Source: Actinomycetes bacterium
GTDB lineage: Bacteria > Actinomycetota > Acidimicrobiia > IMCC26256 > VFJJ01
Length of the DNA stretch: 64,000 nucleotides
Direction: 5' to 3'
NCBI GenBank assembly: GCA_031362415.1
Contig: JANLSK010000056.1
Coordinates: 24,814-88,813 of the forward strand
Position 1 is the first letter of the stretch. Each line of letters starts with the position of its first letter. Below are positions 54,256 through 55,443 of the stretch, in pieces. The notes beneath the pieces are model-generated. The model ran no database searches, was not told the origin of the DNA, and worked only from the letters and a program-made list of their open reading frames with translations. The translations under genes and the position numbers were made by a program.

Positions 54256-55443
54256 GTGACGACCACCGAGATTCCCGGATCGCCCGGCTTCGAGATCGAC
54301 CCCCGGGCGTTGACCCCCCTGGCCGATCAGCGCCTCGACGTCGAGCTCCAGTCCGAGGACATGGTCCTCAACATCGGGCCCCAGCACCCAGCGACGCACG
54401 GGACGCTGCGCGTCGTCGTGAAGCTCGACGGCGAACGCGTCGTGTCGGCCGACCCGGTCATCGGCTACATGCACCGCGGCTACGAGAAGCTCACCGAGTA
54501 CCGCACCTACCCCCAGGTGACGACCCTCATCAACCGCATCGACTGGTTGTCGTCGTTCGCCAACGAGGTGCCGTTCATCCACGCCGCCGAGCGCATCATG
54601 GGCGTCGAGGCCCCGCCCCGGGCCGAATGGATCCGCACCGCGCTCACCGAGCTCTCGCGCATCGCCACCTTCATCCTCTTCCTCGGCGAGATGGGACTCC
54701 AGGTCGGAGCCATCACCCCGGCGTTCTACGGCTTCCGTGACCGCGAGCACGTCCTCAACCTCATCGAGGCCGTCACCGGCGGGCGCTTCCACCCCAACTT
54801 CAACCGCATCGGCGGCATCAAGGACGACCTGCCTGCGGGCTGGATCAACGAGACCCGCCGGGTCATGGGCCTCATGCTCGACTCGTGCGACCAGTTCGAG
54901 GATCTGGTGGCGGGCAACGAGATCTTCCAGGCCCGCACCCGGGGCTGCGGCATCATCCCCGCCGACGTGGGCGCCGCCTACGGGGTCTCGGGTTCGAACC
55001 TGCGGGCCTCGGGCGTCGACTGGGACCTGCGCCGTGACGGCCAGCCCTACCTGGCGTACCGCGAGCTCGACTGGAAGGTGTTCACCCATCCCGACGGCGA
55101 CACCTTCGCCCGCTACTGGGTGCGGCTGCAGGAGACCCGCGAAGCGATCCGCATGGTGTTGCAGATTCTCGACGGCCTCCCGGCGGGACCGGTCATGGCC
55201 AAGGTCCCCCGCATCATCAAGGTGCCGGCCGGCGAGGCCTGGGTGAACACCGAGAACCCGCTCGGCGAGATGGGCTACTACGTCATCTCGAAGGGGGCCA
55301 CGGGGCCGTTCCGGGTGAAGATCCGCACGGCGTCGTTCAGCAACGTCTCGATCCTGCCCTGGTTGCTCAAGGGCGTGTACGTTCCCGACATCGTGACCAT
55401 CCTCGCCGGGCTCTACTTCATCCTCGGAGACATCGACCGATGA
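54256..55443 (+). CDS. nuoD: Complex-I-like subunit D, second copy (HRG motif; Trp at the quinone-Tyr position)
   Basis: Motifs are [31 protein letters not shown] and NRIDWLS. GTG 54256 follows an SD GAGGAG. Confidence 0.9.
   Translation: [395 protein letters not shown]

What the first reader, a model, noticed from the sequence alone, without database searches (positions are those of the whole stretch)
54472..54546. NuoD2 replaces the quinone-binding tyrosine with tryptophan, while NuoD1 keeps it
Seen: an ungapped alignment gives NuoD1 IGYLHTGMEKTGEELTYVQGATNVTRMDYAAS and NuoD2 [32 protein letters not shown]. The Trp is residue 97, codon TGG at 54544-54546. Established (from my recollection of Thermus Nqo4 ...HIGYLHTGFEK...PRMDY87 and the bovine 49-kDa ...LLHRGTEK...DRLDY108): this Tyr, together with the His of the THG motif, hydrogen-bonds the quinone head group. 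The THG His is conserved in both copies. Inference: nuo2 has a remodelled quinone pocket. That could mean a different quinone or redox tuning, a different reaction direction, or altered coupling.
Basis: partly seen in the sequence, partly recalled or inferred. Interest (0 to 1): 0.65.

Follow-up and report, generated by a model that had tools for sequence, protein, structure and literature searches.

The report
Trp-for-Tyr quinone site in Nuo2
The second, NADH-module-less complex I of this actinobacterium really does carry tryptophan where complex I normally has its quinone-binding tyrosine. The change is a conserved lineage trait that comes with a coordinated rebuild of the quinone pocket and a linked NDUFAF7-type methyltransferase gene, and it has been noticed before only in a few Streptomyces.

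Summary
NuoD2 (54256-55443) has Trp97 (TGG 54544-54546) in the column of Thermus Nqo4 Tyr87. His48 (= His38) is kept, and NuoD1 keeps the Tyr.

It is not a lone substitution. In the window's clade the pocket also carries Asp139->Gln149, Thr135->Glu145, Asp401->Tyr387, Pro402->Phe388, Arg350->Leu336, Phe146->Ala156 and Leu62->Met72. NuoB2 and NuoH2 carry matched changes. The Fe-S ligands and membrane-arm motifs are intact, and dN/dS is 0.03.

Trp is fixed in one monophyletic Actinomycetota lineage. That lineage includes the Acidimicrobiia nuoABCDHIJKLMN operons and the orphan nuoD2 of Streptomyces and relatives.

EFG-less operons of Bacillales, Acidobacteriota, Dehalococcoidia and haloarchaea keep Tyr/Asp. 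Trp recurs independently in orphan haloarchaeal NuoCD paralogues and in two methanogen lineages. It was never seen in a 14-gene operon in my sample.

An NDUFAF7/MidA-type methyltransferase gene follows nuoN2. It accompanies 42 of 49 Trp-type loci and 0 of 19 Tyr-type EFG-less loci.

Natural Tyr->Trp was already noted for piericidin-producing Streptomyces (Degli Esposti 2015; Bridges 2020) and read as self-resistance. The breadth of the trait, the rewired pocket and the methyltransferase link appear to be new. Function remains untested.

The parts
54256..55443 (+). nuoD2, 395 aa, quinone-site (49-kDa/Nqo4) subunit of the second nuo set
   Evidence: PF00346 260 bits. NCBIfam NF004739 399.7 bits (cutoff 360), but below the TIGR01962 cutoff. 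E = 3e-102 to Thermus Nqo4. dN/dS 0.03 vs L081.
54544..54546 (+). Trp97 codon (TGG), in the column of Thermus Tyr87 / mouse Tyr108
   Evidence: Trp in 60/60 sequences of the Actinomycetota clade.
54397..54399 (+). His48 codon (= Thermus His38), retained. The whole beta1-beta2 loop GPQHPATHG is retained.
54469..54477 (+). Met72-His73-Arg74 (GYMHRG). Met72 replaces the usual Leu. Arg74 aligns with bovine 49-kDa Arg85, the NDUFAF7 target.
   Evidence: Position 72: Trp-types M72/I30/L5 vs Tyr-types L164/187. Bovine peptide KCDPHIGLLHRGTEK with dimethyl-Arg85 ~7 A from N2 (PMC3750175).
54688..54702 (+). Glu145...Gln149. Asp139 of Thermus is replaced by Gln, and an acidic residue appears one helical turn earlier at the Thr135 position.
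   Evidence: Acid at 149 xor 145 in 173/179 sequences, never both. Helix 121-149 in the model.
55414..55419 (+). Tyr387-Phe388, at the positions of Thermus Asp401-Pro402 (mouse Asp422 region)
   Evidence: Tyr in 18/18 of the window's clade, Phe in orphans, Asp/Asn in 104/104 Tyr-types. Phe388 in 60/60 Trp-clade sequences. Asp422/Val424/Phe425 lie at the piericidin head-group site (PMC7567858).
52559..52951 (+). nuoA2
   Evidence: PF00507. Boundaries by homology to the L081 gene call.
52942..53469 (+). nuoB2. The four Cys ligands of cluster N2 are kept. Cavity changes: T33Q, F34W, M44G, R63P, V119T.
   Evidence: PF01058. Alignment to NDUFS7. Clade comparison. Motif check.
53439..54251 (+). nuoC2 (start codon uncertain)
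   Evidence: PF00329. L081 gene call gives 258 aa.
55553..56614 (+). nuoH2. The likely GTG start is 55553; the ORF is open from 55475. Loop and E-channel motifs are kept. Clade-specific W236P, N257T, M354Q.
   Evidence: PF00146 328 bits..
56614..57108 (+). nuoI2, with two CxxCxxCxxxCP motifs
57108..57911 (+). nuoJ2 (57108-57602) and nuoK2 (57609-57911; both membrane Glu present)
57922..63184 (+). nuoL2 (57922-60063), nuoM2 (60125-61684), nuoN2 (61691-63184), the antiporter-like subunits
   Evidence: PF00361/PF00662.
63294..64000 (+). NDUFAF7/MidA-type SAM methyltransferase gene, cut by the window end
   Evidence: PF02636 78 bits. A homologue lies directly after nuoN2 in 15/19 Trp-type operon loci and near 27/30 orphan Trp-type nuoD, vs 0/19 Tyr-type EFG-less loci; Fisher p = 2e-11.
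36862..38109 (+). nuoD1 of the 14-gene nuo1 operon (34996-50874). It keeps Tyr93, Asp and Asp401, and has Thr at the Arg85 position. It serves as the internal control.

Best explanation
NuoD2 is the quinone-site subunit of Nuo2, a second complex-I-type enzyme without NuoEFG. Nuo2 is a distinct, vertically maintained lineage of Actinomycetota.

Shown here:
- Trp97 sits exactly where Tyr87 sits in Thermus.
- It is fixed throughout the lineage and under strong purifying selection.
- It belongs to a coordinated re-wiring of the head-group pocket. NuoD2 carries L62M, D83N, Y87W, T135E, D139Q, F146A, R350L, D401Y and P402F. NuoB2 and NuoH2 carry matching changes.
- The electron path (clusters N6a/N6b/N2), His38 with its loop, and the membrane-arm coupling motifs are intact.

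Inferred:
- The enzyme still delivers electrons from N2 to a membrane quinone. Menaquinone is assumed, as usual for actinobacteria; this was not tested here.
- The head group probably packs against an aromatic wall of Trp97, Tyr387 and Phe388.
- Its protons probably come from His48 and from relocated groups (Tyr387 hydroxyl, Glu145 carboxylate) instead of Tyr87 and Asp139.
- This should change affinity and redox tuning, and should make the site poorly sensitive to piericidin/rotenone-class antagonists.
- Arg74, next to cluster N2, is probably methylated by the NDUFAF7 homologue encoded after nuoN2.

The electron donor is not identifiable from the locus.
For: - Column identity.
- Fixation: 120/120 close homologues, 57/57 Actinomycetota loci, and a single clade in an NJ tree built without the focal columns.
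- Selection: dN/dS 0.03.
- Pocket table against Thermus/mouse positions.
- Carboxylate present at position 145 or 149 but never both.
- Tyr387 only where Asp139 is lost.
- NuoB2 and NuoH2 clade-specific changes.
- N2, N6a/b ligands and NuoK Glu retained.
- Gene order ABCDHIJKLMN in 27 Trp-type operon loci.
- Leu62->Met/Ile accompanies Tyr->Trp in four independent lineages.
- Methyltransferase linkage.
- Arg85 methylation is known in mitochondria and in Paracoccus: PMC3750175, PMC3829151.
- Tyr variants of Yarrowia lose Q9 reduction but keep Q1/Q2 turnover with raised Km and inhibitor resistance: PMC7567858, PMC4758237.
Against: - No biochemical data exist for any Nuo2.
- In Yarrowia every Tyr144 variant is essentially unable to reduce the natural long-chain quinone. 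A Trp enzyme that reduces menaquinone therefore needs compensation, which I infer only from covariation.
- Deep Acidimicrobiia and haloarchaeal Trp-types keep Asp401, so relocation of the Tyr cannot be the general solution.
- The AlphaFold monomer is unreliable exactly at the pocket loops (pLDDT < 50 at 42-49 and 69-96). No geometry supports the proposed Tyr387/Glu145 roles.
- The donor is unknown, and no donor-module gene is conserved next to the operon.
Confidence: 0.55

Rival explanations
1. Inhibitor resistance is the main reason for the Trp. On this view the Trp-type NuoD is a piericidin/rotenone-class-insensitive Q site, maintained as self-protection or as protection against antagonists made by neighbouring actinomycetes.
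For: Degli Esposti 2015 reported Y87W and a change at position 401 in NuoD of piericidin-producing Streptomyces, and linked both sites to experimentally induced resistance (PMC4758237). Bridges 2020 shows that Tyr108 hydrogen-bonds piericidin, and notes the Trp in S. mobaraensis. The same two positions are changed here.
Against: The Trp-type gene is present in 13 different Streptomyces species and many other genera. It also occurs in planktonic Acidimicrobiia including Ca. Actinomarina, in haloarchaea and in methanogens, far beyond known producers. The same genomes keep a Tyr-type nuo1, which would stay sensitive. Nuo2 lacks an NADH module, so it cannot simply replace Nuo1. The wider rewiring (D139Q/T135E, R350L, NuoB2 and NuoH2 changes) is more than resistance requires.
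Confidence: 0.2
2. Nuo2 is not a forward quinone reductase. It might run mainly in reverse (quinol oxidation driven by proton-motive force to reduce a low-potential acceptor). It might hold a tightly bound quinone as a cofactor, or use a non-quinone acceptor. Losing the proton-donating Tyr and Asp would fit any of these.
For: Two of the three canonical proton-relay residues (Tyr87, Asp139) are replaced, and two pocket charges are lost (Asp401, Arg350). Tyr variants cannot reduce natural quinone in Yarrowia. Other Trp occurrences are in non-canonical contexts: a soluble NuoB-CD-FpoF-like module and orphan paralogues.
Against: His38 and its loop, the NuoH loop motifs and the full antiporter arm are conserved as in quinone-reducing enzymes. 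Lineages known to have abandoned quinone (Mbh/Mbs-type) lose His38 as well (statement from PMC4758237). A carboxylate is always kept at position 145 or 149.
Confidence: 0.15
3. Nuo2 is an alternative Q/P-module that borrows NuoEFG from the adjacent nuo1 operon. That would give a second NADH:quinone oxidoreductase isozyme with a different quinone site.
For: nuo2 lies directly downstream of nuo1 in the window and in 12 of 27 Trp-type operon loci. Spero 2015 raises the same possibility for a genome with one nuoEFG and two copies of the other genes. Orphan Trp-type NuoD paralogues in Streptomyces and haloarchaea suggest that subunit exchange happens.
Against: In about half of the loci no nuo1 is adjacent. 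The closest relatives outside the clade are EFG-less enzymes of other phyla. The best structural-sequence matches of NuoH2 are ferredoxin-dependent NdhA. No test of NuoG docking surfaces was possible.
Confidence: 0.2
4. Artefact: misalignment, sequencing error or a decaying paralogue.
For: None found.
Against: The 45 %-identity alignment is ungapped through the site. The site is conserved in 120/120 and 57/57 relatives. dN/dS is 0.03. All cofactor ligands are intact.
Confidence: 0.01

Closest known systems
Thermus thermophilus Nqo4 / mitochondrial 49-kDa (NDUFS2) subunit of complex I
   Same: Same fold family: E = 3e-102, about 45 % identity. Same beta1-beta2 loop with His34/His38, the same Arg84-x-Asp86 motif, and the same C-terminal GD(I/V)DR. 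It pairs with a NuoB that carries the N2 ligands.
   Different: Tyr87->Trp, Asp139->Gln, Thr135->Glu, Asp401->Tyr, Pro402->Phe, Arg350->Leu, Phe146->Ala. It is encoded in an operon without nuoEFG.
Streptomyces nuoD2 (separate gene of the nuoA2,B2,D2,H2-N2 set). Trp for Tyr87 was reported in piericidin producers / S. mobaraensis.
   Same: Same monophyletic Trp lineage. Same Met72, Asn93, Phe388 and Leu336. Same linkage to a MidA/NDUFAF7-type gene. The substitution and the position-401 change were described by Degli Esposti 2015 and cited by Bridges 2020. The nuo2 set was described in PMC3765725.
   Different: In Streptomyces the gene is an orphan away from the rest of nuo2, with Glu at 139 and Phe at 401. 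In the window it sits inside a complete 11-gene operon, with Gln149, Glu145 and Tyr387.
Yarrowia lipolytica 49-kDa Tyr144 variants (laboratory mutants)
   Same: An exchange at the same residue. It predicts a raised Km, loss of long-chain quinone reduction and inhibitor resistance (as summarised in PMC7567858, and PMC4758237).
   Different: These are single substitutions in a canonical background. Here the change is natural, ancient, and accompanied by compensating-looking changes in three subunits.
11-subunit 'ancestral-type' complex I of Bacillales, Acidobacteriota, Dehalococcoidia and haloarchaea (Moparthi and Hagerhall 2011)
   Same: Same gene order without nuoEFG. NuoD2's best NCBIfam model is the Bacillus-type NF008974. 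Arg at the Arg85 position.
   Different: All of these keep Tyr87, Asp139 and Asp401. None has an adjacent MidA gene.
Ca. Actinomarina heliorhodopsin - 11-subunit nuo - NDUFAF7 cluster (bioRxiv 10.1101/2021.02.01.429150)
   Same: Same class (Acidimicrobiia). Same 11-gene operon followed by NDUFAF7, close to a 14-gene nuo. The Actinomarina locus L023 has Trp.
   Different: The preprint does not mention the Trp or the pocket changes. Actinomarina keeps Glu139/Asp401. No heliorhodopsin gene is adjacent in the window; a patatin-like gene lies upstream.
Cyanobacterial/chloroplast NDH-1 (NdhH, NdhA, NdhK)
   Same: EFG-less. Second-best PDB match for NuoD2 and best for NuoH2.
   Different: NdhH keeps the Tyr (alignment). 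No NdhS/V/O-type genes were seen in the window's operon.

Membership tests
NuoD / Nqo4 / 49-kDa subunit (PF00346; NCBIfam NuoD models) | Profile match above the curated cutoff | tested here: met
   PF00346 260 bits vs 24. NF004739 399.7 vs 360. It falls below the cutoffs of TIGR01962 (399 vs 459) and of the Bacillus-type NF008974 (427 vs 522).
NuoD / Nqo4 / 49-kDa subunit | His38 in the beta1-beta2 loop (quinone ligand) | tested here: met
   His48 in GPQHPATHG.
NuoD / Nqo4 / 49-kDa subunit | Tyr87 (quinone ligand / proton donor) | tested here: not met
   Trp97.
NuoD / Nqo4 / 49-kDa subunit | Asp139 partner of His38 | tested here: not met
   Gln149, with an acidic residue at 145 instead.
11-subunit (NuoEFG-less) complex-I-like enzymes | Operon nuoABCDHIJKLMN with no nuoE, F or G between D and H | tested here: met
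   Pfam on each ORF. Same order in 27 related loci and in L081 gene calls.
11-subunit (NuoEFG-less) complex-I-like enzymes | Fe-S ligands for N2 (NuoB) and N6a/N6b (NuoI); antiporter-like L/M/N | tested here: met
11-subunit (NuoEFG-less) complex-I-like enzymes | Identity of the electron donor (ferredoxin, flavodoxin, F420H2 ...) | not testable with these tools
   No conserved donor gene next to the operon.
Actinomycetota Nuo2 / NuoD2 lineage | Groups with Streptomyces nuoD2 to the exclusion of Tyr-type NuoD | tested here: met
   NJ tree without the focal columns: 68 of 71 Trp sequences form one clade. This is neighbour-joining only, with no support values.
Actinomycetota Nuo2 / NuoD2 lineage | Adjacent MidA/NDUFAF7-type methyltransferase, with Arg at the Arg85 position | tested here: met
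   PF02636 ORF at 63294 onward. Arg74. Linkage statistics.
F420H2 dehydrogenase (Fpo) | FpoD-type sequence and an FpoF (FrhB-domain) input subunit | tested here: not met
   NF040602 340.7 bits vs cutoff 600. No FrhB-domain gene in or beside the operon.
[NiFe]-hydrogenase-type relatives (Mbh, Ech, FHL) | Cys ligands of the NiFe site at the N- and C-terminal motifs | tested here: not met
   The sequence has RIDW and LGDIDR with no Cys at these motifs. PDB matches to Mbh/FHL are far weaker (E = 1e-40).
NDUFAF7 / MidA arginine methyltransferase | PF02636 domain | tested here: met
   78 bits vs 23.3. The ORF is truncated by the window end.
NDUFAF7 / MidA arginine methyltransferase | Symmetric dimethylation of the NuoD Arg next to N2 | not testable with these tools
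   Needs mass spectrometry of native NuoD2.

The most novel reading that the evidence does not exclude
Trp-type NuoD subunits may form a distinct functional class of complex-I quinone site, one that has arisen repeatedly. They occur in Actinomycetota Nuo2, in orphan haloarchaeal NuoCD paralogues and in methanogen Fpo-like enzymes. In this class the 'essential' Tyr87/Asp139 proton relay would be dispensable or relocated (Tyr387/Glu145 here), and the site would work in a different mode. That mode could be stabilising a stacked semiquinone or tightly bound naphthoquinone, or favouring quinol oxidation. In actinobacteria it would be matured by a dedicated bacterial NDUFAF7.
Probability: 0.2. Interest if true: 0.8.

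Novelty: new variant of a known kind. Interest (0 to 1): 0.58.

Why it matters
Tyr87 (Tyr108/Tyr144) is treated as a near-invariant catalytic residue of complex I. It is the proposed proton donor whose chemistry starts the coupling to proton pumping.

A large, well-conserved natural lineage has replaced it, together with Asp139, in a patterned way. That offers a ready-made natural experiment on three questions:
- which parts of the Tyr/His/Asp triad are really required;
- how quinone specificity and inhibitor sensitivity are set;
- what the conserved arginine methylation next to cluster N2 does, since a bacterial NDUFAF7 is genetically tied to its probable substrate here.

The result also corrects the earlier view that the Trp is a rare peculiarity of piericidin producers. 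And it bears on the unknown physiological role of the second nuo set of Streptomyces and of abundant aquatic Acidimicrobiia.

Tried and rejected
- AlphaFold2 of NuoD2 with a 37-sequence alignment. The mean pLDDT was 78 but fell below 50 at residues 42-49 and 69-96, which are the pocket loops. No coordinates are returned either. The pocket could therefore not be inspected, and I ran no fold search.
- Search for a conserved donor-module gene upstream of Trp-type operons. I found only nuo1 genes, a patatin-like gene, and a phosphodiesterase-like gene in deep Acidimicrobiia. No donor candidate emerged.
- Look-up of the 100 %-identical protein P0001 found no record. P0002 gave the relative L081.
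- I first equated NuoB2 Pro63 (FRASPRQ -> FPASPRQ) with the hydroxylated Arg of PSST. Re-counting against mouse NDUFS7 and PMC3750175 shows that the hydroxy-Arg is the Arg of PRYD, which NuoB2 keeps. I withdrew the claim.
- The Thermus His169 column looked clade-specific, but the alignment there is register-sensitive; NuoD1 shows N-H shifted by one. I did not interpret it.
- The 151-nt extra segment after nuoD2 was folded and scanned with Rfam: z = -1.2 and no family.
- Literature searches for Y144W and for NDUFAF7 in actinobacteria gave nothing usable.
- dN/dS against the 82 %-identity relatives (0.2-0.3) is unreliable, because synonymous sites approach saturation in this GC-rich genome. Only the close comparison is quoted.
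Full report
**1. What is in the window**

The window has 68.6 % G+C. It carries a respiratory island on the + strand.
- A bc-type complex lies at about 16994-19999, with haem biosynthesis genes and a Rex-type regulator.
- A canonical 14-gene nuo1 operon (nuoA1 34996 to nuoN1 50874) includes nuoE/F/G.
- A patatin-like gene lies on the - strand (51209-52765).
- A second operon, nuoA2-B2-C2-D2-H2-I2-J2-K2-L2-M2-N2 (52559-63184), has no nuoE, F or G between D2 and H2.

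A 99 %-identical relative from assembly GCA_009886115.1 (L081) has the same gene calls. The nearest named genomes are Acidimicrobiia: Ilumatobacteraceae, Aquihabitans, Microthrixaceae and Ca. Poriferisodalis.

**2. The observation**

NuoD2 (54256-55443, 395 aa) reads ...[32 protein letters not shown].... Codon 97 is TGG at 54544-54546.

phmmer against all PDB chains puts T. thermophilus Nqo4 first (E = 3e-102). NuoD2 29-324 aligns to Nqo4 19-313 without a gap through this region. That gives Trp97 = Tyr87 and His48 = His38.

NuoD1 (36862-38109) is 38 % identical to NuoD2 and keeps the Tyr (Tyr93, TAT 37138-37140).

The only slip is that the stated start coordinate (54472) is 12 nt inside the quoted peptide.

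**3. It is a selected lineage trait**

- All 120 closest homologues (>= 80 % identity) have Trp and the His.
- Among the best 150 representatives of 50 %-identity clusters, 39 have Trp and 90 have Tyr.
- A scan of one genome per species returned 80 loci.
  - L001-L057, all Actinomycetota, have Trp.
  - L058-L080 (Bacillales, Acidobacteriota, Dehalococcoidia, Armatimonadota, Methylomirabilales and others) have Tyr.
- I built a neighbour-joining tree from 185 sequences with the focal columns removed. It places 68 of 71 Trp sequences in one clade, separated from all Tyr sequences at the midpoint root. No support values were computed.
- dN/dS of nuoD2 against L081 is 0.03 at dS 0.20.

**4. Relation to the lack of NuoEFG**

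Every Trp-type operon locus (27 of them) has the order ABCDHIJKLMN. In 12 of these it follows directly after the LMN genes of a nuo1 operon, as in the window.

However, the 23 non-actinobacterial loci are also EFG-less and keep His/Tyr/Asp. The main EFG-less operon of a haloarchaeon likewise keeps Tyr (L086). So Trp is not a consequence of lacking the N-module.

In Streptomyces, Micromonospora, Dactylosporangium, Intrasporangium, Aeromicrobium and others, the Trp-type nuoD is an orphan. No other nuo gene lies within 10 kb. This agrees with the description of the Streptomyces nuoA2,B2,D2,H2-N2 set, in which nuoD2 is separate (PMC3765725).

**5. The pocket is rewired, not just substituted**

I mapped the residues that the literature places at the head-group site. 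The sources were PMC4758237 for Thermus H38, Y87, T135, D139, F146, R350, D401, M404 and G405, and PMC7567858 for mouse His59, Tyr108, Asp160, Thr156, Asp107, Asp422, Val424 and Phe425.

| Thermus position | NuoD2 in the window | Pattern across groups |
|---|---|---|
| His34, His38, Gly39, Arg84, Asp86, Gly405 | kept | kept |
| Tyr87 | Trp97 | Trp in 60/60 of the clade |
| Thr135 | Glu145 | Asp/Glu in 18/18 of the window's sub-clade; Ser/Ala in other Trp-types; Thr in all 23 EFG-less Tyr-types |
| Asp139 | Gln149 | Gln 17, His 1 in the sub-clade; Glu in other Trp-types; Asp in 93/105 Tyr-types |
| Phe146 | Ala156 | never Phe in the clade |
| Arg350 | Leu336 | Leu in the window's sub-clade, other operon types and orphans; Lys in deep Acidimicrobiia; Arg/Lys/Asn in Tyr-types |
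| Asp401 | Tyr387 | Tyr 18/18 in the sub-clade; Phe in orphans; Asp in deep Acidimicrobiia; Asp/Asn in 104/104 Tyr-types |
| Pro402 | Phe388 | Phe in 60/60 of the clade |
| Leu62 | Met72 | see section 7 |
| position 83 (Asp in most Tyr-types) | Asn93 | clade-specific |

Across 179 sequences an acidic residue is present at position 149 or at position 145 but never at both (153 against 20, with 6 having neither). The two positions are one helical turn apart on helix 121-149. The window's sub-clade is exactly the group that combines acid-145, non-acid-149 and Tyr-387. This pattern looks like relocation of a carboxylate and of a Tyr hydroxyl rather than decay. That reading is an inference.

NuoB2 keeps the four Cys ligands of cluster N2 (CC, GSC, GCPP). 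Compared with NuoB1 and with the NuoB of Tyr-type EFG-less operons, it differs at these positions:
- T33Q and F34W;
- the second Met of CCAxEMM (M44G, with a one-residue insertion);
- R63P and V119T.

NuoH2 keeps the KEDxxP..AD, AGWxSxNKY..G..R..AQ.I(A/S)YE, PFD..xAExE and PRxRxDQL motifs. It has clade-specific W236P, N257T, M354Q, S194A and L156F.

NuoI2 has both CxxCxxCxxxCP motifs, and NuoK2 has both membrane Glu residues. The enzyme therefore looks fully competent for electron transfer to N2 and for coupling.

**6. A linked NDUFAF7/MidA-type methyltransferase**

An ORF starts at 63294, 110 nt after nuoN2, and runs off the window end. It matches PF02636 (78 bits).

| Locus type | Loci with a homologue |
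|---|---|
| Trp-type operon loci with sequence beyond nuoN | 15 of 19, directly after nuoN2 |
| Orphan Trp-type nuoD | 27 of 30, within 10 kb and mostly adjacent |
| Tyr-type EFG-less loci with comparable flank | 0 of 19 (none of the 23 Tyr-type loci has one) |

The overall association is 42/49 against 0/19, Fisher p = 2e-11.

In mitochondria NDUFAF7 symmetrically dimethylates Arg85 of NDUFS2 in the peptide KCDPHIGLLHRGTEK, about 7 A from cluster N2. The modification also occurs in Paracoccus but not in E. coli (PMC3829151; PMC3750175). Mutating this Arg removes N2 (PMC8042128).

NuoD2 has Arg74 at that position (GYMHRG), as do all 60 Trp-clade sequences. NuoD1 has Thr, as Thermus does.

A preprint on heliorhodopsins described the heliorhodopsin - 11-subunit nuo - NDUFAF7 arrangement next to a 14-subunit nuo in Ca. 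Actinomarina. It did not comment on the quinone site.

**7. Other Trp occurrences**

Three further origins were found.
- A Methanofastidiosia NuoCD sits in a soluble NuoB-NuoCD-FpoF-like-HdrD-like cluster. Its 118 nearest homologues all have Tyr.
- Methanonatronarchaeales NuoCD (two sequences) lies in an EFG-less Fpo-like operon.
- Thirty-six haloarchaeal NuoCD sequences carry the motif PDRWDW. The two I examined are orphan genes next to a divergent HTH_10 regulator (L084, L087). The haloarchaeal operon copy has PDRWDY.

These lineages keep Asp139 and Asp401.

In every lineage the Trp comes with Met or Ile in place of Leu at position 72. Trp-types show M72/I30/L5/V1, and Tyr-types show L164 of 187. 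This argues for a direct structural coupling of the two positions.

In my sample Trp was never seen in a nuoD that sits in a 14-gene operon. The context is known only for NuoD1, the 80 loci and a few look-ups.

**8. What was already known**

Degli Esposti (Genome Biol Evol 2015, PMC4758237) reported that NuoD of piericidin-producing Streptomyces has Y87W and a change at position 401. He called these 'unique or very rare' and read them as natural resistance.

Bridges et al. 2020 (PMC7567858) repeat the point for S. mobaraensis. They also summarise that all Yarrowia Tyr144 variants are essentially unable to reduce Q9. Q1 and Q2 still give near-wild-type Vmax, with a higher Km and weaker DQA inhibition.

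The present analysis shows four further things:
- the Trp belongs to the NuoD2 paralogue;
- it is universal in a large Actinomycetota lineage and recurrent elsewhere;
- it is embedded in a multi-subunit rewiring;
- it is tied to an NDUFAF7 homologue.

I found none of these points in the searchable literature. That library is limited to open-access papers.

**9. Mechanism**

Shown: the site identity, the conservation, the covariation, the intact cofactor ligands and coupling motifs, and the gene linkage.

Inferred:
- Nuo2 is still a quinone-reactive, proton-translocating enzyme.
- Trp97, Tyr387 and Phe388 form an aromatic wall for the head group.
- His48 plus Tyr387 and Glu145 take over protonation.
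- The site is intrinsically less sensitive to Q-site antagonists.
- Arg74 is methylated.

The quinone is assumed to be menaquinone from general knowledge of actinobacteria. The window shows only a geranylgeranyl-reductase-family gene upstream of nuoA1 and a bc-type complex.

Rivals are inhibitor resistance as the selective driver, a non-forward or non-quinone mode, and a Q/P-module that borrows NuoEFG from nuo1. None can be excluded without biochemistry. The AlphaFold monomer is unreliable at the pocket loops and could not be used.

**10. Verdict**

The finding is a new, broader and better-defined variant of a known kind of enzyme. The bare substitution has partial precedent in the literature. 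I rate the interest as moderate to high for complex I specialists.

Noticed in passing
window 63294-64000 (+), and loci L001-L057: An NDUFAF7/MidA-type methyltransferase gene (PF02636) follows nuoN2. It accompanies Trp-type nuoD in 42 of 49 informative Actinomycetota loci, including next to orphan nuoD2 genes. None is found by Tyr-type EFG-less operons.
   Followed up: yes
L026-L057 (e.g. L036 10001-11176, Streptomyces iakyrus): In Streptomyces, Micromonospora, Dactylosporangium, Intrasporangium, Aeromicrobium and others, the Trp-type nuoD is an orphan gene with no other nuo gene within 10 kb. It usually lies beside the methyltransferase. Its other neighbours (betaine ABC transporter, two-component system, bPH-domain proteins) vary.
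   Followed up: partly
L084 10001-11653 (Halomarina litorea), L087 10001-11671 (Halobiforma lacisalsi), vs L086 (Haloprofundus halophilus): Haloarchaea carry an orphan NuoCD paralogue with Trp at the Tyr87 column (PDRWDW). It is preceded by a divergent HVO_0513_N/HTH_10 regulator. The NuoCD inside their EFG-less nuo operon keeps Tyr (PDRWDY). This parallels the Streptomyces orphan.
   Followed up: partly
L082 3956-10341 (Ca. Methanofastidiosia) and L083 4711-16134 (Methanonatronarchaeales): There are two further independent Trp occurrences. One is in a soluble-looking NuoB / NuoCD / Fer4+FrhB(FpoF-like) / FAD-oxidase+CCG cluster without membrane subunits. The other is in an EFG-less Fpo-like operon.
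   Followed up: partly
window 55444-55594: A 151-nt segment between the nuoD2 stop and nuoH2 is absent from the ~92 %-identical relative L081, where the two genes overlap (ATGA). It gives no Rfam match and no unusual fold (z = -1.2). It shifts the likely nuoH2 start to GTG 55553.
   Followed up: partly
window 51209-52765 (-): A patatin-like phospholipase gene is wedged between nuo1 and nuo2 on the opposite strand. The same gene lies upstream of nuoA2 in L081 and L002.
   Followed up: no
window 52942-53469 (NuoB2 residues 103-112): Trp-type NuoB2 has [13 protein letters not shown] where NuoB1 has [12 protein letters not shown] and mitochondrial PSST has SCANGGGYYHYSY. It thus carries an extra Cys two residues after the N2 ligand. 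The extra Cys is also seen in one Dehalococcoidia locus (L064).
   Followed up: no
representatives P0162, P0176, P0200, P0222, P0225, P0250, P0259, P0260: A group of very divergent Trp-type NuoD homologues branches beside the orphan clade. In these the region around positions 145-156 is degenerate or deleted. Their hosts and contexts are unknown.
   Followed up: no
window 15866-19999, 21158-26758, 26768-27517, 33606-34901: The flanking genes form a respiratory neighbourhood. It contains cytochrome b / Rieske / dihaem cytochrome c (bc-type complex), haem biosynthesis genes (hemL, hemB, hemC, hemA), a Rex-type redox regulator, and a geranylgeranyl-reductase-family flavoprotein just upstream of nuoA1.
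   Followed up: no
window 3392-4390 (+): An IS1595-family transposase ORF (DDE_Tnp_IS1595 plus zinc ribbon).
   Followed up: no
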